From Pirellula staleyi DSM 6068 (lineage in GTDB: Bacteria > Planctomycetota > Planctomycetia > Pirellulales > Pirellulaceae): a stretch of 32,000 nt of DNA. Location of the stretch: positions 180,001-212,000 of the forward strand of contig CP001848.1 in assembly GCA_000025185.1 (NCBI GenBank), read 5' to 3'. How positions within the stretch are numbered: position 1 is the first letter of the stretch; each line of letters begins with the position of its first letter. Positions 2,791 to 16,907 of the stretch are shown in pieces. The notes beneath the pieces are model-generated. The model was not told the DNA's origin. It worked only from the letters and a program-made list of their open reading frames with translations, and did no database searches. The position numbers and the translations under genes are program-made.

Positions 2791-3005
2791 TCGCGCAGCC
2801 TGCATTCACAATTGTCGTTCAAAGATTGTGGAACCCTCGGCGAATACGTTGCACCCAGCGCTTCGGAAAATCGTTTTCTCGCGCTGCAGGTTCCCCGCTC
2901 GCCGACAAACCGCTAGATTCAGCGCTCACAGAATCAAGTTCAACCTCGCCGCGAAAATCTCGCTGCGGGTGCTCCCTTTACTGCGATGTTCACGAGGCAC
3001 AGCTG

Positions 3006-4106
3006 ATGGGTCCGCAACCGAGTGTCGACGAAGATTTAGCCGAGGGTCTGCGCGGAGCGAAAAAATCGCCACGCAACTTTGCGCTCATTTGCAAAGGCCC
3101 GAAGCCGGTCAAGTTGATCGTGCAGAAAAAACCGGTCCGCGCGGGGGAACTCACCAAGGCCAAAACCGAGTCGAAAGGGACCGAGGTGATCGTCGGCACT
3201 GTCGAAGGAGATGGTGCCGATCATGTTTTCTCGGTTGTGGGAGAGGTGCCGAATGTGAAAACGTCGGCGCTCAAAGAATTCATCTCCGAGCAAGCGGGGC
3301 TCACCTGCAAACCACGCTTTCAGTCGGTGAAGCAGCTGGTTTCCGTCGGCGACGACGAACCGGAAACGGGCGCATCGCAAAGCAATGAAACGAGCTCAAG
3401 CACTGCTACGACTACCAAAAATAATTCGGCGAGCGAGCAGGAAACAAACGAGTCAGAAGCCGAAGAGTCCAATGATCTCGCGGAAGCGCGGCAAAAGCTG
3501 CTCGACGCCCTGAAGGGATTGATGCCGACCCTGCAAAAAGTGATTGGCGAGCAGCCAGGCCGACGCATCGCGCTATTGACCGATGTCGATCAGATCAAAA
3601 AGCAGGTCGCCACCGATCTGGCCGCAGCCCAGCAAGCCTTCGACACGCTGGTCGCTTCGCTCGGCGAAAATAATTCGGGCAACAATGAAAGCGCCGAGGG
3701 GAGCAAGGTCTCGCTTGTGAAACTCGGAATCGCGCGGGTCGAGTGGCGCACCACGCGCGACACCGCTGGGGCCGATCTTCGCAAACTCAAAGCGGCGATT
3801 GCAGAAGAATTTGGAGACGACAGCGAGCAAGCAGGCGCGCTCACCGCCGCGATGAAAACACTCGACAACCTGACCGTCGAAGTCGAGAACAACCTGCACG
3901 AACAGCTCGATGCGATCCTTAACGCCGAGGCCCAAGCACGTGGTCCGCTCGTGAAAGCGGCCAAGGCGACGATCAGCAAACTGACGACGCTGCTCGATAA
4001 CGACGAAGTGATGGTGGAGATCGACGACAACGAGTTCCTTCCTGGCATGCTCGTCGTCGCTCCGCTGAAGAAGAAGCTGCAAGACATTTCGGCAGCGATC
4101 GGCTAG
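3006..4106 (+). CDS. Hypothetical protein: small N-terminal beta-rich region, acidic S/T/N-rich linker, helical C-terminal half
   Basis: First ATG in the ORF is at 3006 (MGPQPSVDEDL...); upstream of it the ORF reads as Arg/Cys-rich noise. Coding-like GC3 bias. I recognise no family. Confidence 0.6.
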   Translation: MGPQPSVDEDLAEGLRGAKKSPRNFALICKGPKPVKLIVQKKPVRAGELTKAKTESKGTEVIVGTVEGDGADHVFSVVGEVPNVKTSALKEFISEQAGLTCKPRFQSVKQLVSVGDDEPETGASQSNETSSSTATTTKNNSASEQETNESEAEESNDLAEARQKLLDALKGLMPTLQKVIGEQPGRRIALLTDVDQIKKQVATDLAAAQQAFDTLVASLGENNSGNNESAEGSKVSLVKLGIARVEWRTTRDTAGADLRKLKAAIAEEFGDDSEQAGALTAAMKTLDNLTVEVENNLHEQLDAILNAEAQARGPLVKAAKATISKLTTLLDNDEVMVEIDDNEFLPGMLVVAPLKKKLQDISAAIG

Positions 4107-4204
4107 CGCGAGCCACACCCGCGCGACGTTTTCATCCACCTCACTATCACGCCCACGCGAGCCCTCTGCTTCGCCGGCGCTCTTTCGCATAAAGCAAACC
4201 GATC

Positions 4205-7200
4205 ATGGACAATCCTAAGCAAAAACGTGGCCTCGCCTCCGCACTTCGCTTGCGTCGACGCGCTCGAGGAAGCAGTGCTCTGCCGCCACCTCCAGTGATC
4301 CCCCTGCCACCTGTGCCACAGCCACCCCAGCAGCCGCCGGTACAGCCAGTGGTGCAGCAGCCAGGCTGGGCCCCCGCGCAAAAAAATATCCCAGCCAATG
4401 CTAAAGATTTGGTGGGGGGCGCGCGGCAAATGGCGCTCGCCAAACAGCATTTCGAAAAGGGGCTGAAAGAGGAGATGCCGACGATCCACAAGGCTAAGCA
4501 ATTTGTGCTGACCGTCGATGCTGAACGTATTTCGCAAACCAAGATCAAAGACGATGCGCCGATCGTCGCAGAACTCACCAACCTCTCGACGCTGCTGCAG
4601 CAGCAGGCCAAGACCCTCGAAACGCACACCACCGCCGTCCGCGCCGCCGTGGCTAACAAGGACTTCATCGCCGCTGATACTGAGTTCACGGCCGCCCTCA
4701 CACTCTCCACCACCATGCTGGCGGAAGATGCCAATTTTCAGGCGATCCTGCAGCGACATGGAAAATCGCCGGTGCTCGACCTGGCCGGGGATCGCAAGAC
4801 GATTTCCTCCGCAGGCAAAGAGTTCCGCCGCCGACTCGCCCTTTCGCAAGGGGTGGTCGAAGAGTTGCTCCAAACCGAGTCCGATAACACCGCTGTGAAG
4901 AAGAATATCGCGGAGTTGCAAAAGTCGTACGACGCGATGCAGCAGGCCGATGGGGAGGAGAAGTTCGACGTCGCCGATGGTCTGCTCAACGAAGTTGTCG
5001 AGGACGCCGAGGTGGTGCGGATGCTGGTGAAAGCAGCGCAGCAGTTCGAGGAGTCGGTGGCCCAGCTCAAGCCCGAAATGACCATGGTGAAGAAGTTTCG
5101 CGTGGCCAATCCCACCGACGCTCAGATGGCTAGTCAAGCCTTGGCCATTGCCGCTCATCAGCGCGCGCTCTCGGCAGCCGATCGGGGGAACTTCGTGAAG
5201 GCGAGCGAGGAACTCGGGACCGCACGCGCGGCAGCCTTCGAGCTATTTCCCGACGGTGCCACCGAAGCCCGCGCGTTTGAGTTCGGCTGGCAACAATCGC
5301 TCCCTCGAATCGAGGAGGCGCTGCGGGTGACTAGCGATAGCCCGTATGCCCAAAAGCTGCAGCAGGGAATTCGGGATGTCAAAGCACAGATTGAGAAAGA
5401 TGCCGAGAAACTGAAGTTCGAACGCGCGAGCCTGACGATCGACGATGCCCTGCTGCTGGTGCAAGGTTTGCGCTATGCTGTCGCCGACTGGGAGGTCTAT
5501 GTCGGCTCGAAGGAGCGTGTCGAGAGCGTGATCGCAAGCGCCGACAAAGTGAGCGCTAATTCCGATGCGCAAAAAGCATTTCGCACCACCTATGTCGCAG
5601 CGATGCAGCAGGCGGAAGTGGCCATTCATGCTGGCGATTTCCCACTGTCGAAGCAAAAACTGGGAGAAGCGCAAGAGGCTGCCCTGGGACTCCTCGCCAC
5701 TGGTCCGGGGGCCGATGCCCTGCAGTACTTCACCGAGGTCGATGCCGAGCAGAGTCGCTTGAAAGCGGCCGATAAAATCGTCCCCAAGTGTGGCGTCGTC
5801 ACTGAGGCGAAAGAGGCCTACGACGAAGCGCGTGAGTTCCTCCGCGGCTCGGTCGATCGCGCAGAATTCGATAGCGCGCTGGCCGAACTCGATCTCTGCC
5901 GCACCCGCGCCTATCAGCTCGAAACCGAGCACAAAAAGTACGAAGCAATCGAGCGTCTGCAAAACAGTTATCAAAGCGTGCTCGATGCCGCAGCCACTGC
6001 CGATGTCACCTTGCCCGGTGTCGCGGCAGCCAAGAACGAGTTCGACGACAAGCTCGAGTTTGTCGCGCCGTTGCTCGATACCAATCTCGATCAAGCGCTC
6101 GTCAAACTCAAAGAAGCAGTGACTCTCGCCCACAAGGTGAATGGCCTCATCGAACAAGCAGCCAAGCAAAAGAGTCGCAAACAAGAGCTCGACCAAACGA
6201 TCGGTCTGGCAGGCAAAACGTACCTGCCACCCGGCTCTACCGACGAGCTCTCGAAGGGAACGGTCGCCGGGACCGATACGCTGTGGGATTTCTTCTTGAT
6301 TGCGTCGAGCGTAGCGGAAACGACGCGCGATGCCGCCAGCTTCACGAACCTCGAGCTGGCTGCGAAGTCCTGGCTCGCCGACTTAAAGGCCCGCGATCCC
6401 AACGACCCGCAAGATCCCCAAGTGGCCAAGCGCAAGCAGGCGTGCGAAACCGCTATCAAGCAAGCCAAGCACTTGAAACTCGCCGCCCGATTCAGCGAGC
6501 TCGGAGATCTTCCGTGGGATGCCGCCACCGAAGACAAAGCGGCCGACCTGCAGATGCAAGCGTTGTTTGAAACAGGCGACCGTCCGATGGAGCAAGCGGG
6601 CGATAGCGCGTTTGGTGCCAAGTGGATCGTGAGCCAGGACTTTGCCAATGGCGAAGGGAAACGCGAGTTCGTTTACAAAGCGGCCTTTGAAACCGATGCG
6701 TCCGAGATTCAAGGCTTCCCACGAGGGAGCGAACCGGTGCGCGAAGTGCTCGGTGACGAGCTCGCCAAACAACTCAAGGCGATGACCGGCCTGGAAATGA
6801 ACGTTCCCGAAACGCGTATCGTTTCAGTCGATAGCGAGAAACTCAATCCGGCCGATCCAGGGCGGAGTGTGATCGGCTCGGCGCAGGCAGCAGCGCCGAC
6901 CATCGGCAGCGTGGTGAAGCTGAAGGATTCGAATCCCGAGGCGATGAAAAAAGTGACTCCCAAATCGGCGCAGAAAGCCGCGCTGTTCGATGCCCTCGCG
7001 CTGAACGTCGATCGTCACGGCAACAATTTCCTCGTCACCCCTCCGGGCGAGTCGGGGGAGAGCGAACTGGTGCCGATCGACAACGGACTCGCCTTCCCAT
7101 CGCGGGAAGGGATGGAAGCGCGGCGCGGCCGCAATGCCTCGATGAGTGCCTTTTCCGATATCCGTTCGGCCTACGAACCGTTCGATCCCGAGATCCTCGC

Positions 7201-8338
7201 CGGAATCGAGATGATCGACGAAACCACGCTGATCGCCGGGATGAAAGCCCGCACCAATACGCTGCAAGCCGAGCAGCCCGCACTGAATGTGAAGACGGTC
7301 ACTCCCGACGCGCAGATGGATCTCCTGGCGCGGAACATCAAGTTCCTCAAGAAAGCGGCTCCGCGCGTTTCTCCAGCGGTGATGATGGACCTGCTGATGG
7401 AAAACGCCGTGGCGATTTTCGATTCCCCCGACGCTGATTTCGAGACTGCCATCGAAGCGGTGATCCAAAAGGGAGAAACTCGCGACAAGCACCTCGCTCC
7501 GCTGCTCGACATGACCGACGAGGAAAAACTGACGCTCTACACCGATCTGTGGAAGCTCGGATGGTGCCACGGCTACGGCAACCCACGCAAGAATCCCGGT
7601 GGCGCGGCCGCCACGCTGCTCTTCAAAGTCTGGTGCCTTCGGAACCCGCGCGAAGCGCTCACCCTCACGCGGCGCAAGAAGCCCAATCCAGCGATCCTGG
7701 CCGAAACGGCCCGCTATGTCCAAGAGATCAAAAACGTCGATCCGGCGAGCGACATCGACGCCAAACTCGCTGGCCTCTCTCCTTCCGAAGCACGCGACAA
7801 AGCCCATCTGGTCCTTCGCGGCGACATGATGAAGAAGGGGGTAAAGGAAGTGAAGCAGATCCAAAAACTCGAAGCCGACTTCCTGGTCGAATTCCCCGGC
7901 GAACCGTGGGATCCGCGCGACAGCGACGCCTATCGCCTCTATCAGAAGTACAACGCCAAAAGCTTTGCCGAGGTGAATGGCCAAAAACTCGACAACCTGC
8001 CCTTTGCTGATCGCTGGAATTTGCTCGAAGAATACCTGAAAAATCTCGAGAAAGAAGCACTCAAGGGAGAACTTGATGTCATTCGCCAATCCCCTCCGTT
8101 CCTCGAAATGAACGCCGCGTTTGGCAAGTATGGAGAGCGGGTCACTATTCCGAGCTACTACAAAACGGAAGCAGCCCTCGGCATGCTCACCGCTTGGGAA
8201 GAGCTGAAAGCGCTCGGTGGTATCACCGCCTTCATCGATTGCGGCGGCGACTGCGAAGCGATTGGTGGTGGACCGGAGTACATGCTCGCCGTCGTCCGGG
8301 GCGCTCGATCGGCCCAAGGCATCGACGTCGATGCATAA
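4205..8338 (+). CDS. Giant (1377 aa) protein: basic/Pro-rich N-terminus, about 7 degenerate ~75-80-aa helical repeats, then a PI3/PI4-kinase-family (type II PI4K-like) catalytic core and a ~400-aa unknown C-terminal region
   Basis: ATG at 4205 and a single uninterrupted ORF. Kinase-like motifs: 'EFVYKAAFE' (Lys codon 6677-6679), 'SEPVREVLGDELAKQL..EMNVPETRIV', 'LALNVDRHGNNFLV' (Asp codon 7010-7012), 'VPIDNGLAFP' (Asp codon 7079-7081). Confidence 0.85.
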   Translation: MDNPKQKRGLASALRLRRRARGSSALPPPPVIPLPPVPQPPQQPPVQPVVQQPGWAPAQKNIPANAKDLVGGARQMALAKQHFEKGLKEEMPTIHKAKQFVLTVDAERISQTKIKDDAPIVAELTNLSTLLQQQAKTLETHTTAVRAAVANKDFIAADTEFTAALTLSTTMLAEDANFQAILQRHGKSPVLDLAGDRKTISSAGKEFRRRLALSQGVVEELLQTESDNTAVKKNIAELQKSYDAMQQADGEEKFDVADGLLNEVVEDAEVVRMLVKAAQQFEESVAQLKPEMTMVKKFRVANPTDAQMASQALAIAAHQRALSAADRGNFVKASEELGTARAAAFELFPDGATEARAFEFGWQQSLPRIEEALRVTSDSPYAQKLQQGIRDVKAQIEKDAEKLKFERASLTIDDALLLVQGLRYAVADWEVYVGSKERVESVIASADKVSANSDAQKAFRTTYVAAMQQAEVAIHAGDFPLSKQKLGEAQEAALGLLATGPGADALQYFTEVDAEQSRLKAADKIVPKCGVVTEAKEAYDEAREFLRGSVDRAEFDSALAELDLCRTRAYQLETEHKKYEAIERLQNSYQSVLDAAATADVTLPGVAAAKNEFDDKLEFVAPLLDTNLDQALVKLKEAVTLAHKVNGLIEQAAKQKSRKQELDQTIGLAGKTYLPPGSTDELSKGTVAGTDTLWDFFLIASSVAETTRDAASFTNLELAAKSWLADLKARDPNDPQDPQVAKRKQACETAIKQAKHLKLAARFSELGDLPWDAATEDKAADLQMQALFETGDRPMEQAGDSAFGAKWIVSQDFANGEGKREFVYKAAFETDASEIQGFPRGSEPVREVLGDELAKQLKAMTGLEMNVPETRIVSVDSEKLNPADPGRSVIGSAQAAAPTIGSVVKLKDSNPEAMKKVTPKSAQKAALFDALALNVDRHGNNFLVTPPGESGESELVPIDNGLAFPSREGMEARRGRNASMSAFSDIRSAYEPFDPEILAGIEMIDETTLIAGMKARTNTLQAEQPALNVKTVTPDAQMDLLARNIKFLKKAAPRVSPAVMMDLLMENAVAIFDSPDADFETAIEAVIQKGETRDKHLAPLLDMTDEEKLTLYTDLWKLGWCHGYGNPRKNPGGAAATLLFKVWCLRNPREALTLTRRKKPNPAILAETARYVQEIKNVDPASDIDAKLAGLSPSEARDKAHLVLRGDMMKKGVKEVKQIQKLEADFLVEFPGEPWDPRDSDAYRLYQKYNAKSFAEVNGQKLDNLPFADRWNLLEEYLKNLEKEALKGELDVIRQSPPFLEMNAAFGKYGERVTIPSYYKTEAALGMLTAWEELKALGGITAFIDCGGDCEAIGGGPEYMLAVVRGARSAQGIDVDA

Positions 8339-8370
8339 CCCCCGTGCCCGTGACAAAAAATAACCTGCGT

Positions 8371-8392
8371 AGCAGCAGCCTGCTGCTTTTTA
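8371..8392 (+). terminator. Putative rho-independent terminator after the giant gene
   Basis: agcagca-gcc-tgctgct stem-loop (8371-8387) running into a T5 tract, 33 nt after the stop at 8338. Confidence 0.5.
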
Positions 8393-8396
8393 ACTT

Positions 8397-8426
8397 GGAG
8401 GCCGCTGCTACAACGTAGCGGCCTCC
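8397..8426 (+). terminator. Second GC-rich hairpin, possibly a tandem or bidirectional terminator element
   Basis: ggaggccgct (8397-8406) pairs with agcggcctcc (8417-8426), leaving a 10-nt loop. No U-tract follows. Confidence 0.3.
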
Positions 8427-8450
8427 ACAGCCACACTCCGCCACGCTTGT

Positions 8451-8918
8451 ATGGCCATCGCGATTGAACGACTCATCGAGCGTCCCGAGTGCCTTCCGCT
8501 CTTGGCCGACTGGCTGCTGGCCGAGTGGCCCGAGTCGGTCGGTCATGCGCGCTCCGAAGCGCTCATCAACATGGCGGGGCGCACCAACCTTCACCGCTTG
8601 CCCCTCGGGCTCGTGGCGTTCGACGATGGTTGGCCGGTCGGCATGGCGACCTTAGCCCTCGACCGAGCACCGCCGGAACTCGAGTTCAAAACGGCTTATC
8701 TCCCCTGCCTCACCACGCTGTATGTCGATCCACCGGCGCGCAGGCGCGGCATCGGCACGCTGCTGTGCGACGCCATCGCCGGCGAAGCAGCCCGACTCGG
8801 CCGGAGCGAAATTTTTCTCTACACCCTCGACGCCGCCGAGTTCTACCGCGCCCGAAACTGGCAGCAGCTGACCGATGCCACCCCCGTCTTCATGCGCCGC
8901 TCCCTTGCCACCTCGTAA
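8451..8918 (+). CDS. GNAT-family N-acetyltransferase
   Basis: ATG at 8451, 155 aa. 'LYVDPPARRRGIGTLLCDAIAGEAARLG' matches GNAT motif A (R/Q-x-x-G-x-G/A) in the acetyl-CoA binding region. Confidence 0.85.
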   Translation: MAIAIERLIERPECLPLLADWLLAEWPESVGHARSEALINMAGRTNLHRLPLGLVAFDDGWPVGMATLALDRAPPELEFKTAYLPCLTTLYVDPPARRRGIGTLLCDAIAGEAARLGRSEIFLYTLDAAEFYRARNWQQLTDATPVFMRRSLATS

Positions 8919-9146
8919 TAGACATCGATCGAGTGGAACAACTGGCATTTGCGCGCCACCAACTGCAAGCAGCTTGATCCCCCACGAAATCGGTAAAAAA
9001 GCCTTGTGTCGCGGTCGCCGCCCCCTAGAATCCAGCGATGTTGGTTCGAGCAGCGCTGGAGCGCCGAGTTGAAGCTCCAGCGAAAAAAATCGAGCGCTAT
9101 GAATCCGCGATTCGTCTTCGTGCGTCAGCGTCAGGAACATGTCTCT

Positions 9147-11768
9147 ATGTCCAACGACCTTGCAAGCAACTCCAACGCCGAAGCCGAGGCCTGGGTCAAG
9201 GAGGTGCGTCGCATCCTGAAGCGGATGGCGCTGCGGCTCGCCACGGAGGCCTCGCTCGAAGAGGCCGACCGCGCTGATGAAGCGAATCTGGCCGAAGGGA
9301 TTCGGCAATCAGAAACGCTGAAACAAGAACAAGACCAAGTTCGGTTTGCGACGAACCAAATCGCCATCCAAGAGCTGACAGCGGTCGCCAGTTTGCTCAC
9401 CCCCGTCACCCCGAAGTTTGCGCAGCTGATCGAAACCTATAGCGCCGCGAAGCTCGTGTTCGATAGCGCCGCTGCTGAAGCGGAAGCCAATGAAACCTAC
9501 GAGCCATTTTTTTCCGACCAAATCGCGTTTCAGAAAGAGGTTGAGACCCTCGTCGGACTGCAGCCCGAGCACGATCAGCTTGTTGCTGCCAAAACGGAGA
9601 TCGAGCAGTGGCAAACGACCGAGTCGTCGAAGGTCGACGATGTGGTGAAGCTGACCTCGCTTCCTTCCCTGCTGCTTGCAGCGCAAAGCAAACTCGCCAC
9701 GCTCTACGACACGCTGAAGCTCCAAATCGAGCAGAGCGAGTATCTCACCGCGAAAGGTTTGCTGGCCGATGTCGACGCGCACCTCAGCTTGTACGGCGAT
9801 GCCCAAGTAGCGCATGCGCAGGCCAAGGAATCGTGCGATACCGCCTGGTATCAAAACGTGGAGACGATACTCCAGCAAGCGCGCCAGGTGCCCACCGCAA
9901 CCGGACTCGCCACTGAATTCAGCGAACTCGAGAAAGCAGCGCAGGCCAGCTACGACGAGTACAACAAGCAGGAATATGCCGAAGCTCAAAAATTGCAGCA
10001 GGCGATCATTGATAAAGCGCAGCTCCTGATCGAGAAGAACAAACTGAAGGTCGCTTGCGATTTCGCCTGGATTCAAAACGTTCAGCCGACCTTCTCGGAA
10101 GCGCAGCAAGTTCCCAATGTCCCCGGGTTGAACAAAGAGATTGGCGAGTTCAACAGCGCGTGCACGGAGAGCAACAACAAGTATTATGCGGGCGAGTATG
10201 TCGAAGCGCAAAAATTGCATCAGACGATCGTCGATAAAGCGCAGCTCCTGATCGAGAAGAACAAGCTGAAGATCGCCTGCGATAACGCCTGGAATCAAAA
10301 TGTCCAGGCAATTTACTCGGAAGCGCAGCAAGTCCCGAACGTCTCCGGGATGCAAAAGGAGGGTGGCGAGTTTGTAAACGCATTTACCGCAAGCAACAAC
10401 AAGTATTTTGCGGGCGACTATGCCGAAGCACAAAAGCTGCAGCAGGCGATCATCGATAAAGCACAGCTCCTGATCGAGAAGAACAAGCTGAAGATCGCCT
10501 GCGATAACGCCTGGAACCAGAACGTCAGCGCTTCCTACCTGCAAGCGCGAAAAGTGGGTGTCGTCCCTGAACTGAAGACTGCGATCGAAGCCCTCGACCT
10601 CGCCATGAAAGCGAGCAACGACGAGTACAACAAGGGAGCGTATGCCGAGGCGCAAAAGTTCCACCCGGCGATCGTCGAAAAAGCCAAAGAGCTCATTCAA
10701 GCTGGCGCAACCACGATGCTTGTGGCGCGTCCCGAAATTGGCTCGACCCAAGAGTTACTGGCAACTTCGAAGCTCAACTTGATGTCGACCGACGATCAAC
10801 AACTCGTCACCGAATTGATCGACAAAGCGCCGACCGAAAAGCATAAGCAGAACCTTCGCAAAGCGGTTGCGAGCGGCCACTCGGCGAAAGAAATCTCCGA
10901 TTTCGCCGCGAAAATTCGCTTCAAAGATGAAAAGTGGATTCAGGAAAACTTGCACGTCACCGTCACCAGTTCAGGGAAAGGCATTCAGCAGCAATTCAAA
11001 ATGTCGTGCCAGGCAACCATGGTGCAGGCGGTTCGTGCGGAGCTCGATCCGATCTATGCCCTGCAGTTGCACGAAGAAAATTTCGATATCACCCAAGTGG
11101 GCAAAAGCGAGCAGACCGAGCTTGCACGTGAGCAAAAGAAGATGCTCGAAACCGACTGGGCCGAACTCAACACCACCTACGAGAGTCAAGCCAAACAGCG
11201 GATGGACAACGAAGACCCGACAACGAAACTAGCGCTCGAGCAACTTTTGGCCACCGCTACGACGAACAACGAGAAGAATCAGCTGAACTACGAAATCGGT
11301 CGCGCCGAGAAATTTTCTCCCGATGTCCTCAAGGCGTGGTTCGATAAAGATGTCAAGGGAAAGCGTTCCTCGGCGGGTGTCGCCGTGCATATAGGGAACC
11401 CAAGCCCCGAACATGGTCGCGGCCGAACAGGAGTCGATCTCCTCAACAAGAACCAAGCCAGCACCGGGCTGAAGTACGAGCAAGTCCTGGTCAATGACAG
11501 CACGCGCGAAGCAGCAGTCAACGACATCACCGCCGAGCTCATGCTCGGACGTCCGGTCCCACTCACGGTCGGTAGCTTCGAAGGACAGACGGCCCACTAT
11601 GTCCTGGCCCTCGGCATTGTGCCGGGCAATCCCAAGTCGATCATCATTCACGATCCCGGTACTGGCACCACCGTGATGCGGACCGAAGATCAGCTGAAGA
11701 ACAATCAAATGGATCTCCCCTCGACCTGGGGCCGCCTCACCGACTACGTCAAACCGACGCCGATTTAA
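9147..11768 (+). CDS. Large helical-repeat protein with four 74-aa tandem repeats and a C-terminal papain/C39-like cysteine peptidase domain
   Basis: ORF is open from GTG 9006. Candidate starts are ATG 9099 (MNPRF...) and ATG 9147 (MSNDLASN...), so the start is uncertain. C-terminal 'QQQFKMSCQATMV' (Cys codon 11007-11009), 'TAHYVLALG' (His codon 11595-11597) and 'IIIHDPGTG' (Asp codon 11652-11654) resemble the Q..C / HYV / I.DP pattern of C39-type peptidases. Confidence 0.8.
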   Translation: MSNDLASNSNAEAEAWVKEVRRILKRMALRLATEASLEEADRADEANLAEGIRQSETLKQEQDQVRFATNQIAIQELTAVASLLTPVTPKFAQLIETYSAAKLVFDSAAAEAEANETYEPFFSDQIAFQKEVETLVGLQPEHDQLVAAKTEIEQWQTTESSKVDDVVKLTSLPSLLLAAQSKLATLYDTLKLQIEQSEYLTAKGLLADVDAHLSLYGDAQVAHAQAKESCDTAWYQNVETILQQARQVPTATGLATEFSELEKAAQASYDEYNKQEYAEAQKLQQAIIDKAQLLIEKNKLKVACDFAWIQNVQPTFSEAQQVPNVPGLNKEIGEFNSACTESNNKYYAGEYVEAQKLHQTIVDKAQLLIEKNKLKIACDNAWNQNVQAIYSEAQQVPNVSGMQKEGGEFVNAFTASNNKYFAGDYAEAQKLQQAIIDKAQLLIEKNKLKIACDNAWNQNVSASYLQARKVGVVPELKTAIEALDLAMKASNDEYNKGAYAEAQKFHPAIVEKAKELIQAGATTMLVARPEIGSTQELLATSKLNLMSTDDQQLVTELIDKAPTEKHKQNLRKAVASGHSAKEISDFAAKIRFKDEKWIQENLHVTVTSSGKGIQQQFKMSCQATMVQAVRAELDPIYALQLHEENFDITQVGKSEQTELAREQKKMLETDWAELNTTYESQAKQRMDNEDPTTKLALEQLLATATTNNEKNQLNYEIGRAEKFSPDVLKAWFDKDVKGKRSSAGVAVHIGNPSPEHGRGRTGVDLLNKNQASTGLKYEQVLVNDSTREAAVNDITAELMLGRPVPLTVGSFEGQTAHYVLALGIVPGNPKSIIIHDPGTGTTVMRTEDQLKNNQMDLPSTWGRLTDYVKPTPI
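9834..10721 (+). repeat. Four in-frame tandem repeats of 222 bp (74 aa) inside the 9147-11768 CDS
   Basis: Cys codons of the 'ACD.AW.QNV' block recur at 9834, 10056, 10278 and 10500, exactly 222 bp apart. The block 'gataaagc(g/a)cagctcctgatcgagaagaacaa(a/g)ctgaag' recurs at 10011, 10233 and 10455. The two middle copies are nearly identical at DNA level. Confidence 0.9.
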
Positions 11769-11867
11769 GTACTCTCTCGGATGCACCACGCGAGTGGCAG
11801 CACCACTCCTTGGCGCGACACGACATCACCACAGCCCATCAGGGCGAAAGCATAGTTGGGTAAACGC

Positions 11868-12362
11868 ATGGCGAACGATCTCAATCCCCATCAGCTCCTC
11901 GCGCGGCGACCGACGGAGTACCTCCGAGCAGGTTTCTTTGACCCGCCAGGAAGTCTGCGCGCGAGCTTGCTCGGGATCGATGCCTTTGCTGTCGCCACGC
12001 AGCTGATGCAGGGAGCCGCCTCGCCCGACGAAGTGACGATCACCTACGAGGCACTCCGCCAGCTGGTCGAGCAGCAGCCCGCCGGCGCAACTCCCCAGCG
12101 GCTCGGCGTTGCCCTCCCCGAAGCGCTGCAGCTGGTGCGGCGCATGCTCGGGATCGAGAACAACGATACCCTCGCCGCTTGGCTTTTCGATTGCCAGCCG
12201 TTTGTGCGAACCGACGACGATCTGCGCGCCTTTTTCGACCATTTTCAGGCTGTTTTACGGCAATACACGTCGCTCCTCGGCGTCAGCACTCCCCCCGCTG
12301 CTGACGCTGCTAACCCAAGCCCCGACGCACCAAGCCCCGACGCGCCGGGCGCCGAAGGCTAA
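11868..12362 (+). CDS. Hypothetical 164-aa protein with a Pro/Ala/Ser/Asp-rich tail (PSPDAPSPDAP)
   Basis: ATG at 11868 (the track ORF starts at TTG 11856), 99 nt after the protease-domain gene on the same strand. Coding-like composition. No recognisable family. Confidence 0.55.
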   Translation: MANDLNPHQLLARRPTEYLRAGFFDPPGSLRASLLGIDAFAVATQLMQGAASPDEVTITYEALRQLVEQQPAGATPQRLGVALPEALQLVRRMLGIENNDTLAAWLFDCQPFVRTDDDLRAFFDHFQAVLRQYTSLLGVSTPPAADAANPSPDAPSPDAPGAEG

Positions 12363-12646: not shown

Positions 12647-13792
12647 ATGAAGCCGTCACCGAAACAGCGACCCGACTACTTAGTCGTCGGCAGCGGCTTC
12701 TTCGGAGGAGTCTTCGCGCGCGTGATGGCCGAGCATGGTTTGCGCTCACTCGTAATCGATCGCCGCCCCCACTTGGCGGGCAATTGCTACACCCAATCGC
12801 AACATGGAATCGAGGTCCATCAGTACGGGCCTCACATTTTTCATACCAGCGACGAGCGCGTGTGGAAGTTCGTCAATCGCTTCGCCAAGTTTCATCACTA
12901 CATCCATCGCGTCGTCGCCCGCTATGGCGAAACGACCTATTCATTTCCCATCAACCTGAAAACACTCGAGCAGCTGTGGGGAGTCCGCACTCCTGAGGAA
13001 GCCGCCGCGCGACTCCAAGCCGAATGCATCCCTCACGCGCAGCCTCAGAACTGCGAAGAGTGGCTGCTGGCCAACGTCGGTCGGCAAATCTACGAGACCT
13101 TTTTCGAGGGCTATACCACCAAACAGTGGAACCGCTCTCCCGCCGAACTCCCCGCGTCGATTGTCCGCCGAATTCCGATCCGTCTGGCCGACAACGATCG
13201 CTATTTTGACGACCGCTTCGAAGGGATTCCGATTGGCGGCTACACGCGGCTGTTTGAAAACCTGCTCGATCACCCGCTGATCGAAATCGAGACCGGTGTC
13301 GATTATCTGGCGAGTCGCAAGGAGCTATCGAGCATTGCCCCGAGCCTGGTTTATAGCGGCGCGATCGATGAGTTTTTTGACTATCGCTTCGGAGCCCTCG
13401 ACTATCGTTCGCTCCGTTTTGTTTCGGAAGTTATTGACGGCGACTATCAAACGACGGCGATTGTGAACTACACCAGCGCCGCTGTCCCGTTCACACGAAT
13501 CACCGAGCATAAACACTTTGCCGGAACACAGTCGAGCAAGAGCGTCATCACGCGCGAATATCCCGACGACTATGCTCCTGGTAGGACCCCCTACTATCCG
13601 GTGCGCGATCCGCAGAATGTCGCGCGCTACGAGCAATATCGTCGGCTGTCGCTGCAGCTGCCGGTGATTTTTGGGGGGCGACTCGGGAGCTATCAGTATT
13701 TCGACATGCACCAGGTGATTGCCCAGGCGCTGAGCAAAGCGGAAGCGGAACTCGCGCTGCGCGGTCAGGTGCAACAGCGACGAGCCGCCTAA
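12647..13792 (+). CDS. glf: UDP-galactopyranose mutase
   Basis: 'DYLVVGSGFFGGVFA' Rossmann FAD motif, 'HLAGNCYT', 'VHQYGPHIFHT' and 'YPV..P.N' blocks; the 381-aa length is typical of Glf. Confidence 0.9.
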   Translation: MKPSPKQRPDYLVVGSGFFGGVFARVMAEHGLRSLVIDRRPHLAGNCYTQSQHGIEVHQYGPHIFHTSDERVWKFVNRFAKFHHYIHRVVARYGETTYSFPINLKTLEQLWGVRTPEEAAARLQAECIPHAQPQNCEEWLLANVGRQIYETFFEGYTTKQWNRSPAELPASIVRRIPIRLADNDRYFDDRFEGIPIGGYTRLFENLLDHPLIEIETGVDYLASRKELSSIAPSLVYSGAIDEFFDYRFGALDYRSLRFVSEVIDGDYQTTAIVNYTSAAVPFTRITEHKHFAGTQSSKSVITREYPDDYAPGRTPYYPVRDPQNVARYEQYRRLSLQLPVIFGGRLGSYQYFDMHQVIAQALSKAEAELALRGQVQQRRAA

Positions 13793-13856
13793 CCGTGCGC
13801 GCCTTCGGGGCAATAAACCAGCACCATCACCACGACGATAGAATCTCACCGACTCC

Positions 13857-14726
13857 ATGCCTCATCACTTGACAAACTCGAGCAGCGCGAGCCCCGCATC
13901 GACCGGTCGACGCTGGCTCGTGATTTCACCGGTCGGTGACCGCTCGTGTCACTCGAGCTGGATAACCGGTCGCCCCCAGCGGCAGTTCGACTTGATGCTG
14001 ATCTACTTTGGGGATCAGCCGCACTACGATTTTGGCGGGGCCGAACATCAGCTGCGGCGCAAGGGATTTAAATACCATTTGCTCGCCAGTGTGGTGGAAG
14101 AATATCGCGAACTTCTCGCGCAGTACGACACCATCTGGCTCCCCGACGACGACATCCGCACGACCCCGCGCGAGATCCACCAGCTCTTTGAAATCTTCGA
14201 GCGGCAGCTGCTGCTGGTGGCTCAGCCGGCAATTGCGTCGGGGGTGATTTCGTACCAAAGTTTGCGGCAACAGCGGCGCACGCTGCTGCGCTACTCGCCG
14301 CTGGTCGAAGTGATGTGCCCGATTTTTGCGCGCGACTATTTTTTGCAATCGAGCGCGCTCTTTCGCGAGAATCAATCGGCGTGGGGGATCGACTGGATCT
14401 GGTCGAATCGCTGTGCGGCCTCTCAGCGCGCGGTGATCGATGCGGTCGGCGTGCACCACACCGGTGTGCTGATGCAGGGAGACCTCTATCAAAAATTGAA
14501 AGCGCGAGGGATCAATCCGACCGAAGAGTTCCACGCTCTGGTCGAGCGCCATGGTGGCATCGACTGGTCGGTCCATCGTCAGCTGATCGAAGGGACCTTA
14601 CCGATGGAGCGCATCGCAGCGGCTGGTCCGCTACTTGCGCTCTGGCAGCGTCTGACGAATCAGCGCGTGACGAATCAGCGTCTCGCGCTGCCGCGCCCGC
14701 AAGCTACATCGCAAAGCGCAGCTTAA
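13857..14726 (+). CDS. DUF707-like protein (putative glycosyltransferase-like, function unknown)
   Basis: ATG at 13857. 'YDTIWLPDDDI....EIFERQLLLVAQPA' resembles the DUF707 core (xxD[ED]D followed by 'SQPAL'). Adjacent to glf. Confidence 0.55.
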   Translation: MPHHLTNSSSASPASTGRRWLVISPVGDRSCHSSWITGRPQRQFDLMLIYFGDQPHYDFGGAEHQLRRKGFKYHLLASVVEEYRELLAQYDTIWLPDDDIRTTPREIHQLFEIFERQLLLVAQPAIASGVISYQSLRQQRRTLLRYSPLVEVMCPIFARDYFLQSSALFRENQSAWGIDWIWSNRCAASQRAVIDAVGVHHTGVLMQGDLYQKLKARGINPTEEFHALVERHGGIDWSVHRQLIEGTLPMERIAAAGPLLALWQRLTNQRVTNQRLALPRPQATSQSAA

Positions 14727-14753
14727 ACACCCGCATCTCAGCTGCGGCCTGCC

Positions 14754-16022
14754 TTACCCGTCGAGCAACCGTTCGCCACGGATCAGATCGGCCGGGGTTT
14801 GACGTTCACGCACCAGATGCGCGGTGCCATTCTTGATCAGCACTTCCGCTGCGAGCGGTTTGCTGTTGTAGTTCGACGCCATCACAAAACCGTAAGCGCC
14901 AGCTCGTTCGAGAACGAGATACTCGCCGATCCGAGCCGACGGAAGGGAACGCTTGCAAACGTAGCCCCCTTCCTCCTGCGTGAAGATGTCGCCTGATTCA
15001 CACAGCGGACCACCCACCACCACATCGCGATCGGCGCGTTCGCCTGCATCGAGAGGGACAATCGACATCGGGTGATACGAGCCGTAGAGGATCGGCCGCG
15101 CGAGGTTATTAAAGCCCGCATCGAGCAGATAGAAGGTGTTGTTGCCCATCTGCTTGATCGCACGAATCTCAGAGACGAGATAGCCACTCTCGGCTACCAA
15201 GTAACGCCCCGGCTCGATCTCGAGCGAAATCTTGTGTCCCAGGGCTGCTTCGAGACGTTTGCGCGAAGCATCCCACAGTTCAAAATACTGATCGAGGTCG
15301 ACGTAGGTCTGCTTGTCGTTGTAAGGAATCGGCAAACCACCACCGGCGCTGATCGTGGTGATGCTGCGACCCACTTCCAGCACGACGCGTTCCATCGCCG
15401 AACAAACTTGCGACAGATGTTCGAGGTCGGTGCCACTGCCGATGTGCATGTGGATGCCGCTGATCATCAGCCCATGGCGGTCGGCCTTCTGCAGGCAGTC
15501 GGTCAGCTGCTCGTGCCAAATGCCATGCTTGCTCTGCTCGCCACCGGTGTTGGTCTTTTGGCTATGCCCATGTCCAAAGCCTGGATTGATACGAAGCGTG
15601 ACATGCGCGCCGGGCTTCACTGCGCCGAGTTGGTCGAGCATGTCGGGCGAACCGCAGTTCACCGGAATATCGAGTTTCACCACCGTGGCGAGCGCGTCGC
15701 GATCGAAAATATCGGCGGTGTACACAATCTCGTGATTCTTGCTTCCCGGCTTATAGCCAGCCGCCATCGCGCGGTGAATCTCGCCGGTGCTCACCGCATC
15801 GACCACCACACCTTTTTTGCGCATCAGATCGAGGATGGCGATGTTCGAACACGCTTTTTGGGCGTAGCGAATGACGTCGAACTTGGCCAGGTCGTCGATC
15901 CGCTCTTCGATGATCGCAGCGTCGTAAACGTAGGTCGGTGTGCCATAGTCGCGCGCGATGTCGGCGACACTCACACCGGCGATTTCGTGACGGATGGTAG
16001 AAAAAGTAGGTGTGGCGGGCAT
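14754..16022 (-). CDS. lysA: Diaminopimelate decarboxylase
   Basis: 422-aa PLP-dependent group IV decarboxylase. Blocks 'IRYAQKACSN', 'GSGHMHIGSG'-type 'HMHIGSG', 'GGGLPIPY', 'GPLCESGD' and 'AGAYGFVMASNYNS..' are present. Confidence 0.9.
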   Translation of the reverse strand: MPATPTFSTIRHEIAGVSVADIARDYGTPTYVYDAAIIEERIDDLAKFDVIRYAQKACSNIAILDLMRKKGVVVDAVSTGEIHRAMAAGYKPGSKNHEIVYTADIFDRDALATVVKLDIPVNCGSPDMLDQLGAVKPGAHVTLRINPGFGHGHSQKTNTGGEQSKHGIWHEQLTDCLQKADRHGLMISGIHMHIGSGTDLEHLSQVCSAMERVVLEVGRSITTISAGGGLPIPYNDKQTYVDLDQYFELWDASRKRLEAALGHKISLEIEPGRYLVAESGYLVSEIRAIKQMGNNTFYLLDAGFNNLARPILYGSYHPMSIVPLDAGERADRDVVVGGPLCESGDIFTQEEGGYVCKRSLPSARIGEYLVLERAGAYGFVMASNYNSKPLAAEVLIKNGTAHLVRERQTPADLIRGERLLDG

Positions 16023-16133
16023 AGCGGCGGGCGACCTATGGAGAAAGTAAAGGCGTGGCGTTATGGAAAGAAAACTTGTGTGACAAATTGGATGGTGGAT
16101 CGCGCTGCGTGCGGAACAATCGAAGGCAACTTG

Positions 16134-16907
16134 CTAGAACCCGAGCGACGCGGCACGTAGCCAGCGGAGTTGTTCAAAATACTGCTGCTGCTCGCGCTCG
16201 TCGAGCGGGGACGCGTGGTCGGCCTCGGCCAGCAGCAACTGCTGCTGCGGACCGGCGTAGGCATCGGTAATCAGCCGTTGATATTTGGGGGGGACGACCC
16301 GATCCTTCTGCGACAGGACAAACACAGCCGGCACCTTGGTTCGCGCAGCTTGCGCCACGCTGTCGAGTTCGGCCGGCACGTAGCGAGCCACCCCGAGATG
16401 CGCAAGCCCCAGTGAAACGAGCCCATACTGGCCATTAATGAGTGGTCGCAGCGGCGGCGGATTTCGCAAAATACAGCCGACAATTTGCCGGTAGCGGCTG
16501 GCGACATGCAGCGCCGTGGCGGTTCCTAAACTGTTGCCGGTGACGATGATCGGCGCGCCGCGAGCCTCGTCGATCAAAGCCTCGCACACCGCGCGAATGG
16601 CAGCGGCCAGCGATACGAGCGTCGCCCGTCCGCCACTCCCACCATAGCCGGGTGGATTCACCGCCCAGGTTTCCCCGGCCAGATCGCTCCAGGCATCGAG
16701 CGGATGGGGCCCGGCCCGTTCAGCGCGGCCACCAGTTCCACCGAGCTTCAGGACGTACAGCTGCGGCGCGCGATCGGTGTGAAATCGCTCGGTAAAGACC
16801 TCGACCGTAGCCCCCTCGAACGGAACCTCGCGACGGATCTTCGCCCCAAAGTCGATTTTGTCCCGACTCGGACAAAGCACCAAACGATCAGCCAGCCACT
16901 GAGGCAA
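16134..16907 (-). CDS. Alpha/beta-fold hydrolase
   Basis: 'IIVTGNSLGTATAL' is a GxSxG nucleophile elbow. There are a late Asp and a late His ('EADHASP'). The apparent start is TTG at 16907, so the start is uncertain. Confidence 0.7.
   Translation of the reverse strand: MPQWLADRLVLCPSRDKIDFGAKIRREVPFEGATVEVFTERFHTDRAPQLYVLKLGGTGGRAERAGPHPLDAWSDLAGETWAVNPPGYGGSGGRATLVSLAAAIRAVCEALIDEARGAPIIVTGNSLGTATALHVASRYRQIVGCILRNPPPLRPLINGQYGLVSLGLAHLGVARYVPAELDSVAQAARTKVPAVFVLSQKDRVVPPKYQRLITDAYAGPQQQLLLAEADHASPLDEREQQQYFEQLRWLRAASLGF

What the first reader, a model, noticed from the sequence alone, without database searches (positions are those of the whole stretch)
10960..11768. Papain/C39-like cysteine protease signature at the C-terminus of the repeat protein
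'GIQQQFKMSCQATMVQAV' places a Gln 5-7 residues before a Cys (oxyanion Gln plus nucleophile). About 195 residues downstream lie 'GQTAHYVLALGIVPGNPKSIIIHDPGTG'. The H-Y-V-(hydrophobic) and I-x-D-P pattern is the His/Asp part of the C39-type (bacteriocin-processing-like) and related papain-fold catalytic triads. A protease head on a long helical scaffold sits next to a kinase-headed protein with a similar scaffold, which suggests paired effector activities.
Basis: partly seen in the sequence, partly recalled or inferred. Interest (0 to 1): 0.7.

Follow-up and report, generated by a model that had tools for sequence, protein, structure and literature searches.

The report
Papain-fold toxin domain with partner gene
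The C-terminal third of a hypothetical Pirellula staleyi protein is very probably a papain-type cysteine protease domain, belonging to a large uncurated family of injected bacterial toxins that nearly always sit next to a small partner gene that looks like an immunity gene.

Summary
Both motifs lie in ORF 9006..11768 (+), and the Cys, His and Asp codons are at 11007, 11595 and 11652 as stated. The window is Pirellula staleyi DSM 6068. The gene is Psta_0147 (annotated start 9147, 873 aa, 'hypothetical').

The last ~330 aa define a large family: 811 representative clusters, with no Pfam or NCBIfam model. Gln(-6), Cys and His are conserved in 116, 115 and 116 of 116 domains, and the third residue is Asp, Asn or Glu in 115.

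An AlphaFold2 model (pLDDT 92.6) puts Cys at a helix N-terminus and His and Asp on consecutive strands. Its Foldseek hits are almost all papain-fold enzymes. The best are the C39-type antibacterial toxins Cpe1 and StbD-CT, but the scores are borderline. Pfam C39 is not reached (13 vs 22 bits).

Family members are fused to PAAR, VgrG, eCIS-core, ADP-ribosyltransferase and PI-kinase modules. Two homologues lie beside T6SS genes. A ~150-aa cytoplasmic partner (here Psta_0148, 11868..12362) follows 25 of 28 protease genes.

Best reading: a cysteine-peptidase toxin head with a cognate immunity-type protein, delivered by a contractile injection system. Substrate, delivery route in P. staleyi and triad geometry are untested.

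The parts
9147..11768 (+). Gene Psta_0147 of Pirellula staleyi DSM 6068 (873 aa from the annotated ATG; the mechanical ORF starts at GTG 9006)
   Evidence: ORF list and translation. P0006 is 100% identical from M48. The exact-sequence look-up gives ADB14843.1 / WP_012909108.1.
9147..10778 (+). N-terminal helical region of ~540 aa, containing 74-aa repeats (222-nt tandem array at 9975..10529, 2.5 copies, 83% match). No recognised domain. Presumed carrier or loading part.
   Evidence: Tandem Repeats Finder. No Pfam, NCBIfam or PADLOC hits. Only weak similarity to the N-termini of the closest homologues.
10779..10949 (+). Conserved four-helix segment (residues 592-648) that precedes the catalytic core in nearly all family members
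   Evidence: Column occupancy ~1.0 and conserved K28/A29/A31/I46/W53 (model numbering) in 116 domains. Helices 4-15, 20-31, 36-46 and 51-57 at pLDDT 95-98.
10980..11045 (+). Nucleophile motif G-x-G-x-Q-Q-[WF]-x-x-S-C followed by the Cys helix. Q662 (codon 10989) is the putative oxyanion Gln; Cys668 (codon 11007) the putative nucleophile. An invariant D-P follows the helix.
   Evidence: Q71 116/116, C77 115/116, G68 115/116, D90 and P91 116/116. Cys77 is the first residue of helix 77-89. The Gln-to-Cys spacing of 6 matches Gln177/Cys183 in StbD-CT.
11160..11363 (+). Helical insertion of ~68 aa (residues 719-786) between the Cys lobe and the beta-sheet lobe, specific to the closest subfamily
   Evidence: Column occupancy is 0.03-0.08 across 116 domains. 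The insertion is absent in P0001-P0005 and present in P0007, P0009 and P0153-P0156. Its pLDDT (74-91) is lower than the rest of the model.
11469..11762 (+). Beta-sheet lobe carrying His864 (codon 11595), His882 (11649) and Asp883 (11652)
   Evidence: H273 116/116, H291 109/116, D292 104 D + 7 N + 4 E. Strands 273-281 and 287-292. This segment aligns to the catalytic His/Asp segment of StbD-CT and Cpe1 and to Pfam Peptidase_C39 positions 82-116.
11868..12362 (+). Partner gene Psta_0148 (164 aa, no signal peptide, no known domain): putative cognate immunity protein
   Evidence: Homologues at 29-47% identity lie directly downstream in L001-L005. A profile search finds it directly downstream of 25 of 28 protease genes, often with overlapping stop and start codons. 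There is no terminator-like hairpin in the 100-nt gap. No Pfam or PADLOC hit.
4205..8338 (+). Neighbouring Psta_0145 (1377 aa): helical N-terminal part plus a PI3K/PI4K-like kinase domain (DRHGNN and IDNG motifs). A co-occurring effector candidate, not part of the protease itself.
   Evidence: Pfam PI3_PI4_kinase E = 1.8e-4, below the cut-off. 26% identity over 386 aa to the kinase-like protein of the Pedosphaera T6SS island. 32% over 161 aa to the kinase segment of fusion protein P0079.

Best explanation
Psta_0147 is a modular toxin or effector. A ~540-aa helical-repeat N-terminal part carries a ~330-aa C-terminal papain-fold cysteine peptidase domain. Gln662 would form the oxyanion hole, Cys668 would be the nucleophile at a helix N-terminus, His864 the general base, and Asp883 would orient the His. 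After transfer into a target cell the domain would cleave one or a few cytoplasmic proteins. The producer would be protected by the co-transcribed cytoplasmic partner Psta_0148, which would bind and neutralise the domain. Delivery is most likely by a contractile injection system (T6SS, or eCIS in other lineages). What is shown: motif conservation, a confident papain-like model, remote similarity to C39-type toxins, the fusions and T6SS neighbourhoods of homologues, and the tight synteny of the partner gene. What is inferred: catalysis, toxicity, the immunity function, the delivery route in P. staleyi and the nature of the substrate.
For: The catalytic positions are the most conserved columns of a family with 811 representative clusters. 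The AlphaFold2 model has pLDDT 92.6 and papain topology. Foldseek PDB hits are almost exclusively papain-fold enzymes, led by Cpe1-type (9l5u) and StbD-CT (8ssm/8ssk) toxins. The profile's best PDB sequence hits are the same toxins, aligned on the catalytic His and Asp (residue identities). Weak hits to Pfam C70, C39 and C39_2 recur in 9-11 of 72 members each. The domain is C-terminal in 111 of 128 complete instances. Members are fused to eCIS_core (6 of 28 long members), VgrG modules, PAAR, VgrG3-like_C, ADP-ribosyltransferase and PI3/PI4-kinase. Homologue loci L003 and L004 adjoin tssBC, tssA and tssM. The partner gene lies directly downstream of 25 of 28 protease genes in Planctomycetota, Verrucomicrobiota, Alpha- and Betaproteobacteria. 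It has no room for a signal peptide. Characterised analogues work this way: Cpe1-Cpi1 (PMC12136450) and StbD-CT-StbI (bioRxiv 10.64898/2026.05.07.723447).
Against: No similarity to a known peptidase reaches formal significance (Foldseek E >= 1.3e-3, TM 0.43-0.45 on the small targets; PDB profile E >= 0.015; Pfam below cut-off). Triad geometry could not be measured. The window protein has no PAAR, VgrG, MIX or eCIS_core module, and the 32-kb window holds no T6SS or eCIS gene. Whether P. staleyi has such a machine was not testable here. Some family members sit in multi-domain proteins with annexin, PI-kinase and ADP-ribosyltransferase modules that look eukaryote-directed. The partner could be a chaperone rather than an immunity protein. 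Papain-fold enzymes also include deamidases, transglutaminases and acyltransferases; CtaG is among the hits.
Confidence: 0.62

Rival explanations
1. It is a eukaryote-directed effector. The protease and the neighbouring PI-kinase-like protein would be injected together into protist, algal or other eukaryotic cells to manipulate membranes and trafficking. Psta_0148 would then be a chaperone, adaptor or regulator rather than an immunity protein.
For: The protease/PI-kinase pairing recurs in a Pedosphaera T6SS island. It is fused in P0079 together with annexin repeats. Four further members carry annexin domains. ADP-ribosyltransferase and eCIS_core fusions occur. The kinase gene has no obvious immunity gene after it in L004.
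Against: A strictly conserved, translationally coupled downstream gene in 25 of 28 loci is the hallmark of toxin-immunity pairs. Known T6SS adaptors are usually encoded upstream of the effector and belong to recognisable families, whereas this partner has no Pfam hit. The closest structural analogues are antibacterial. The P0108 locus carries an ADP-ribosylglycohydrolase, a self-protection gene.
Confidence: 0.15
2. The papain fold is right but the chemistry is not peptide-bond hydrolysis. The domain would be a deamidase, transglutaminase, acyl/amide transferase or deubiquitinase-like enzyme that modifies rather than cleaves its target.
For: Foldseek hits include CtaG variants, and one member hits BtrH_N, an acyltransferase-type papain fold. 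A second near-invariant His (H882, 109/116) next to the Asp and an invariant D-P after the Cys helix are not standard C39 features. Polymorphic-toxin papain folds include glutamine deamidases (PMC3482391).
Against: The best structural and sequence matches are true peptidases: Cpe1-type, StbD-CT, staphopain, SpeB, PCAT1 C39 and GtgE. The Gln(-6)/Cys/His/Asp set and its spacing are those of papain and C39 peptidases.
Confidence: 0.12
3. The domain is mainly an auto-processing (releasing) peptidase that cuts its own polypeptide after delivery. It would free the helical N-terminal part, or neighbouring modules in multi-domain relatives, rather than being the toxic activity itself.
For: In 17 of 128 complete instances the domain is followed by more than 30 aa, and in at least 14 of those by further modules of over 100 aa. 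It is internal in 3500-3900-aa proteins and is followed by ADP-ribosyltransferase in P0108 and P0141. StbD-CT auto-processes. Zhang et al. note that some papain-like toxin domains double as releasing peptidases.
Against: In 111 of 128 instances, and in the window protein, it is the C-terminal and only recognisable catalytic domain. A dedicated neutralising partner would be unnecessary for a purely cis-acting processing domain.
Confidence: 0.07
4. It is an intracellular two-gene toxin-antitoxin or anti-phage module that is never secreted.
For: In the window and in most genomic loci the pair sits among housekeeping genes, without secretion genes nearby.
Against: No PADLOC hit. The family is fused to PAAR, VgrG and eCIS_core delivery modules. 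L003 and L004 lie beside T6SS genes. A ~540-aa N-terminal extension is atypical of toxin-antitoxin toxins.
Confidence: 0.04

Closest known systems
Cpe1-Cpi1 (E. coli T6SS/CDI papain-like cysteine protease toxin and its immunity protein; PMC12136450; apparently PDB 9l5u)
   Same: Best Foldseek hit (E = 1.3e-3, prob 1.00, 21% identity over 105 columns) and a weak profile hit on the His/Asp segment. It has a Cys/His/Asp triad, is the C-terminal toxin head of a modular effector, and has a cognate immunity gene downstream.
   Different: Cpe1tox is ~140 aa; this domain is ~330 aa, with an obligatory four-helix N-terminal segment and a helical insertion. The Cpe1 carrier is a PAAR-like DUF4150 domain, whereas here it is a helical-repeat region with no known loading module. 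Homology of the immunity families could not be compared. Cpe1 cleaves GyrB and ParE at Gly-Gly; the substrate here is unknown.
StbD-CT / StbI (Citrobacter rodentium CdiA-like C39 peptidase toxin; PDB 8ssk, 8ssm, 12aj; bioRxiv 10.64898/2026.05.07.723447)
   Same: Best sequence-profile hit in the PDB (E = 0.015). 'HYV...IHDP' aligns to 'HWVVV...IYDPW', which holds catalytic His258 and Asp275. The Gln177-Cys183 spacing of 6 is the same as Gln662-Cys668. The immunity protein is encoded downstream.
   Different: StbD-CT is delivered by CDI (type V secretion) with a YajC-dependent entry domain. It is half the size of this domain. The His-to-Asp spacing is 17 there and 19 here. Auto-processing at a Gly-Gly linker has not been examined here.
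Peptidase family C39 (Pfam PF03412; bacteriocin-processing domains of ABC transporters such as ComA, LahT, PCAT1)
   Same: The only curated peptidase family hit by the window protein itself (E ~0.07, profile positions 82-116, the His/Asp part). PCAT1 and a C39-like domain appear among the fold hits.
   Different: The score (13.4 bits) is below the gathering cut-off (22). There is no ABC-transporter fusion and no double-glycine leader context. Members hit C70 and C39_2 about equally often, so the family is a separate branch of clan CA.
Tox-PLC39 and other papain-like toxin domains of polymorphic toxin systems (Zhang et al. 2012, PMC3482391)
   Same: A papain-like C/H/D toxin head at the C-terminus of T6SS- and PVC(eCIS)-delivered proteins, associated with the PVC-metallopeptidase/DUF4157 module. 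The family here shows eCIS_core, PAAR and VgrG fusions.
   Different: Identity with Tox-PLC39 could not be tested because no sequences were at hand. The phyla listed there (Bacteroidetes, Chloroflexi, Firmicutes) differ from those found here. No immunity family was assigned to Tox-PLC39, whereas this family has a dedicated partner.

Membership tests
Papain-like fold (MEROPS clan CA / Pfam clan Peptidase_CA) | Sequence order Gln (oxyanion), Cys, His, Asp/Asn, with Gln about 6 residues before Cys | tested here: met
   Q662-x5-C668 ... H864 ... D883. Conserved 116/116, 115/116, 116/116 and 104 D + 7 N + 4 E of 116.
Papain-like fold (MEROPS clan CA / Pfam clan Peptidase_CA) | Nucleophile Cys at the N-terminus of a helix; His and Asp/Asn on adjacent strands of an antiparallel sheet in the second lobe | tested here: met
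   In the AF2 model (pLDDT 92.6), helix 77-89 starts at Cys77, strand 273-281 starts at His273 and strand 287-292 ends at Asp292.
Papain-like fold (MEROPS clan CA / Pfam clan Peptidase_CA) | Significant structural match to solved papain-fold enzymes | tested here: inconclusive
Papain-like fold (MEROPS clan CA / Pfam clan Peptidase_CA) | Cys, His and Asp side chains within hydrogen-bonding distance | not testable with these tools
   Model coordinates are not exposed. Adjacency is inferred only from topology and from the alignment to StbD-CT His258/Asp275.
Peptidase C39 (Pfam PF03412) | Score at or above the curated gathering threshold | tested here: not met
   13.3-13.4 bits against a cut-off of 22. 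The best among 72 members is E = 0.0017. C70 and C39_2 are hit about equally often.
Peptidase C39 (Pfam PF03412) | N-terminal domain of an ABC exporter that removes double-glycine leaders | tested here: not met
   The domain is C-terminal on a helical-repeat protein, and no ABC-transporter domain is present in the protein or its neighbours.
Cpe1 / StbD-CT type antibacterial cysteine-peptidase toxins | Toxin head of a modular effector carried by T6SS or CDI delivery modules | tested here: inconclusive
   Family members carry PAAR, VgrG and eCIS_core modules, and L003 and L004 adjoin T6SS genes. The window protein itself has no such module, and the window has no T6SS gene.
Cpe1 / StbD-CT type antibacterial cysteine-peptidase toxins | Cognate immunity gene immediately downstream that neutralises the toxin | tested here: inconclusive
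   A conserved partner gene lies directly downstream in 25 of 28 cases. Binding and neutralisation were not testable. Homology to Cpi1 or StbI was not tested.
Cpe1 / StbD-CT type antibacterial cysteine-peptidase toxins | Cleavage of GyrB and ParE at the HAGGK Gly-Gly motif | not testable with these tools
   This needs biochemistry or a toxin-substrate complex prediction.

The most novel reading that the evidence does not exclude
The protease and the adjacent PI3K/PI4K-like protein form a co-evolving effector pair. They are separate genes in Pirellula and Pedosphaera and fused with annexin repeats in another organism. A free-living planctomycete would inject them into eukaryotic cells (grazers or algae). 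The conserved small partner would not be a classical immunity protein but a dedicated regulator or chaperone of a new papain-fold enzyme class whose substrate is unrelated to topoisomerases.
Probability: 0.15. Interest if true: 0.7.

Novelty: new variant of a known kind. Interest (0 to 1): 0.5.

Why it matters
Papain-like cysteine-protease toxins with immunity partners were shown experimentally only in 2025-2026 (Cpe1 and StbD-CT, both of which cleave GyrB and ParE). This work points to a much larger relative: at least 811 clusters at 50% identity, across Planctomycetota, Verrucomicrobiota, Proteobacteria, Bacteroidia and Myxococcota. The family has no curated model, a domain twice as large, and its own conserved partner family. 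It gives a function to two 'hypothetical' genes of a cultivable type strain, Pirellula staleyi DSM 6068, so the prediction can be tested directly. The recurrent link to a PI-kinase-like effector, as neighbour and as fusion, hints at a reusable effector set in phyla whose contractile injection systems have hardly been studied.

Tried and rejected
- Single-sequence Pfam, NCBIfam and PDB searches of the domain gave only noise, apart from a weak C39 hit.
- The first AF2 run, with 6 sequences, was unusable for the Cys lobe (pLDDT 59.8).
- The word-index homology search with a 72-sequence alignment returned only 8 proteins because of the candidate cap.
- BFVD gave only weak papain-like hits, among them AvrRpt2-like and calpain-like proteins.
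- PADLOC gave no defence-system hit.
- The partner protein has no Pfam hit and no meaningful PDB sequence hit; the best was LpoA at E = 0.027, judged noise.
- I tried to obtain StbD/Cpe1 relatives for a profile-profile comparison using a 40-aa fragment.
- The genome-collection scan with A3 failed because no stretch was conserved enough. A1 worked.
- The NCBIfam hypA hit (E = 1.8e-4, 21 vs 88 bits) and the FAD_binding_1 and Ezh2 CXC hits fall in the helical parts and were rejected as spurious.
- UniRef's label 'PH domain-containing protein' is not supported by any Pfam hit.
- A peptidoglycan-amidase (Tae/NlpC-P60-like) reading was considered and rejected. The partner has no signal peptide, and the best fold hits are peptidases.
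- A literature search did not establish whether P. staleyi has a T6SS.
Full report
**Observation**

The stated start, 10960, is one base out of frame. The three codon coordinates are exact: Cys668 at 11007, His864 at 11595 and Asp883 at 11652, counted from the first ORF codon.

An exact-sequence look-up identifies the window as Pirellula staleyi DSM 6068. The gene is Psta_0147 (ADB14843.1; 873 aa from the ATG at 9147; 'hypothetical protein'). Its neighbours are:
- Psta_0145, a PI3K/PI4K-like protein (4205..8338);
- Psta_0146, a GNAT acetyltransferase (8451..8918);
- Psta_0148, a 164-aa hypothetical protein (11868..12362).

No paper in the library mentions Psta_0147.

**Is it more than chance?**

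A Gln-x5-Cys plus a His/Asp pattern is weak evidence on its own. Conservation makes it strong.
- A word-index search found only five relatives.
- An exhaustive profile search of 1.84 billion representatives found 811 proteins at E <= 1e-3 and 165 at E <= 1e-30.
- In 116 full-length domains, the Gln six residues before the Cys is invariant (116/116). The Cys is 115/116 and the first His 116/116. The Asp position is D104/N7/E4, and the His next to it is 109/116.
- A D-P pair just after the Cys helix is also invariant.

The family motif is G-x-G-x-Q-Q-[WF]-x-x-S-C ... D-P-x-Y-A-L ... H-[YAF]-V ... I-H-D-P-x-x-G.

It begins at about 10779 with a four-helix segment present in nearly all members. 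The window protein and its closest relatives also carry a ~68-aa helical insertion (11160..11363) between the two lobes. Only ~3% of the family has it. That insertion explains why Cys and His are 196 residues apart here but ~130 elsewhere.

**Fold**

With six sequences AlphaFold2 failed on the Cys lobe (pLDDT 59.8). With 72 sequences the model is confident (pLDDT 92.6, pTM 0.88).
- Cys77 (model numbering; residue 1 = residue 592 of the ORF) is the first residue of helix 77-89.
- His273 opens strand 273-281.
- His291-Asp292 close strand 287-292.

This is the papain arrangement.

**Sequence links**
- The window domain alone gives one weak peptidase hit: Pfam Peptidase_C39, E ~0.07, 13.4 bits against a cut-off of 22, on the His/Asp segment.
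- Across 72 members, weak hits recur to Peptidase_C70 (11 members), Peptidase_C39 (10) and Peptidase_C39_2 (9). CEP76 peptidase-like and BtrH_N, both peptidase-like or papain-type by their Pfam descriptions, are also hit.
- The family profile searched against PDB sequences finds the same toxins as the fold search: 8ssm_B (E = 0.015), 12aj_A, 8ssk_A and 9l5u_A. It also finds MARTX/RTX cysteine-protease-like chains.
- In these alignments 'taHyvlvtG...IHDPwtG' matches 'GHWVVVKG...IYDPWKG'. The preprint on that toxin (StbD-CT) names Cys183, His258 and Asp275 as the triad and Gln177 as a substrate contact. The aligned His and Asp are 17 residues apart in the chain, as His258 and Asp275 are. Gln177-Cys183 has the same spacing of 6 as Gln662-Cys668.

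I conclude that the domain is a divergent branch of clan CA, nearest to C39-type toxins. It does not meet Pfam's C39 threshold. Its context, a C-terminal domain with no ABC exporter, is not that of classical C39 peptidases.

**What kind of protein is it?**

The domain behaves like a polymorphic-toxin head.
- It is C-terminal in 111 of 128 complete instances, in proteins of 200 to 3900 aa.
- Long members carry eCIS_core/DUF4157 (6 of 28), VgrG modules (Phage_GPD, Phage_base_V, Gp5_C), a Tse3 N-terminal domain, ADP-ribosyltransferase and PI3/PI4-kinase domains.
- Shorter members carry PAAR, VgrG3-like_C and annexin domains.
- Homologue P0003 lies next to tssBC, tssA, tssM and tssL.
- Homologue P0007, from a Pedosphaera MAG, lies in an island next to tssA and tssM. 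In that island, five open reading frames, among them the PI-kinase-like protein, share an N-terminal ~115 aa but differ in their C-terminal heads.

The window itself holds no secretion-system gene. The island (about 2826..12362) is flanked by hemN-like, glf, lysA-like, metG, mqn and pyrG genes. The same is true of most of the 22 genomic loci recovered from GTDB genomes. Whether P. staleyi encodes a T6SS or eCIS could not be tested. The only hint is its inclusion in a genome set derived from VgrG BLAST hits.

**The partner gene**

A ~145-165-aa ORF directly follows the protease gene in the window and in L001-L005. The P0153 locus has a 149-aa gene in the same position. The homologues are 29-47% identical to the window copy.

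A profile of this protein finds it immediately downstream of 25 of 28 protease genes, in Planctomycetota, Verrucomicrobiota, Alpha- and Betaproteobacteria. Stop and start codons often overlap. In one locus two convergent pairs sit back to back.

The partner has no Pfam, PADLOC or convincing PDB match. The homologous region starts within 2-19 residues of the N-terminus in most copies, which leaves no room for a signal peptide. In the window there is no terminator-like hairpin in the 100-nt gap, whereas one follows the kinase gene at 8369..8386.

This is the gene organisation of toxin-immunity pairs such as Cpe1-Cpi1 and StbD-CT-StbI. Those immunity proteins bind beside the active site rather than in it. 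A cytoplasmic partner also argues for a cytoplasmic target and against a peptidoglycan-amidase role.

**The 'paired effector' idea**

This is supported in part.
- The Psta_0145 kinase-like region matches Pfam PI3_PI4_kinase below threshold (E = 1.8e-4). It carries DRHGNN and IDNG motifs.
- It is 26% identical over 386 aa to the kinase-like protein encoded two genes after the protease in the Pedosphaera island.
- In the 2309-aa metagenomic protein P0079, annexin repeats, a PI3_PI4_kinase segment (1711-1782) and the protease domain (1835-2137) lie in one chain.
- The N-terminal 'scaffolds' of Psta_0145 and Psta_0147 show no significant sequence similarity (best E = 0.053). They are alike only in being helical and A/E/K/Q-rich.

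**Mechanism proposed**

The helical N-terminal part serves as carrier or loading region (inferred). The C-terminal domain is a thiol peptidase using Gln662, Cys668, His864 and Asp883 (strongly supported by conservation and fold; not shown biochemically). It acts on cytoplasmic protein(s) of a recipient cell after contractile injection (inferred from family fusions and neighbourhoods). Psta_0148 neutralises it in the producer (inferred from synteny).

The substrate is unknown. Transferring the GyrB/ParE Gly-Gly specificity of Cpe1 and StbD-CT to this domain would be speculation, given ~20% identity and a domain twice the size.

**Rivals**
- A eukaryote-directed effector pair, with the partner acting as chaperone.
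- Non-peptidase papain-fold chemistry.
- A mainly auto-processing role, suggested by internal positions in giant proteins and by the ADP-ribosyltransferase that follows the domain in P0108 and P0141.
- A non-secreted toxin-antitoxin or defence module.

**Novelty**

The kind is known. Papain-like and C39-like toxin heads in T6SS- and PVC-delivered polymorphic toxins were catalogued in 2012 (PMC3482391). Two C39-type antibacterial toxins with immunity proteins were characterised in 2025-2026.

This family has no curated model. It has an enlarged architecture, its own conserved partner family and a different set of carriers, and it is widespread. I rate it a new variant of a known kind, of moderate interest.

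Noticed in passing
window 4205..8338 (+): Psta_0145 (1377 aa) has a PI3K/PI4K-like catalytic segment (DRHGNN ... IDNG; Pfam PF00454 E = 1.8e-4 and HipA_2 E = 0.003, both below cut-off) after a ~800-aa helical region. A related kinase-like protein sits in the Pedosphaera T6SS island L004. It is a candidate injected lipid or protein kinase.
   Followed up: partly
window 2826..4106 (+): This 426-aa ORF has no real Pfam hit. Its C-terminal ~120 aa are weakly related (E = 8e-6) to the C-terminus of a 416-aa protein of the polymorphic effector set in L004. Related ORFs lie next to protease genes in L011, L014, L017 and L019. It may be a third effector of the same island.
   Followed up: partly
L004 559..9976 and 13444..16224: In the Pedosphaera MAG, five open reading frames (1009, 416, 350 and 120 aa, plus the kinase-like protein) share an N-terminal ~115 aa (39-87% identity) but have different C-termini. 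This is a polymorphic effector array next to tssA and tssM. The shared N-terminal module is uncharacterised.
   Followed up: no
window 9975..10529 (+): A 222-nt tandem repeat (2.5 copies, 83% match) encodes 74-aa helical repeats ('YAEAQKLQQAIIDKAQLLIEKNKLKIACDNAWNQNV...') in the N-terminal part of Psta_0147. GC content falls to 0.52 in 10001..11000, against ~0.58-0.60 in the neighbouring 1-kb windows.
   Followed up: partly
window 8451..8918 (+): A GNAT acetyltransferase (Psta_0146) lies between the kinase-like and protease genes. Near-identical copies share contig lengths (9782, 33030 and 1408941 bp) with kinase-cluster members in other assemblies. Whether it relates to the kinase (self-protection?) is unknown.
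   Followed up: no
window 3001..12000: The + strand shows a strongly positive AT skew (0.15-0.29) over the three long helical-protein genes, except for one bin at 0.04 (8001..9000). Elsewhere in the window the skew mostly lies between -0.15 and +0.18. This is a compositional signature of the A-rich (K/E/Q/N) coding of this island.
   Followed up: no
P0108 locus (JGI 3300048101; no DNA held) and P0141: In some members the protease domain is followed by an ADP-ribosyltransferase. The P0108 locus then encodes 192-aa and 164-aa ORFs and an ADP-ribosylglycohydrolase, which looks like a stack of immunity genes for a two-headed toxin.
   Followed up: no
L012 835..1233 (+): A Rap1a-family T6SS immunity protein (Pfam E = 2e-19) is encoded ~4 kb upstream of the protease-partner pair in an Acetobacteraceae MAG, among purine-biosynthesis genes.
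   Followed up: no
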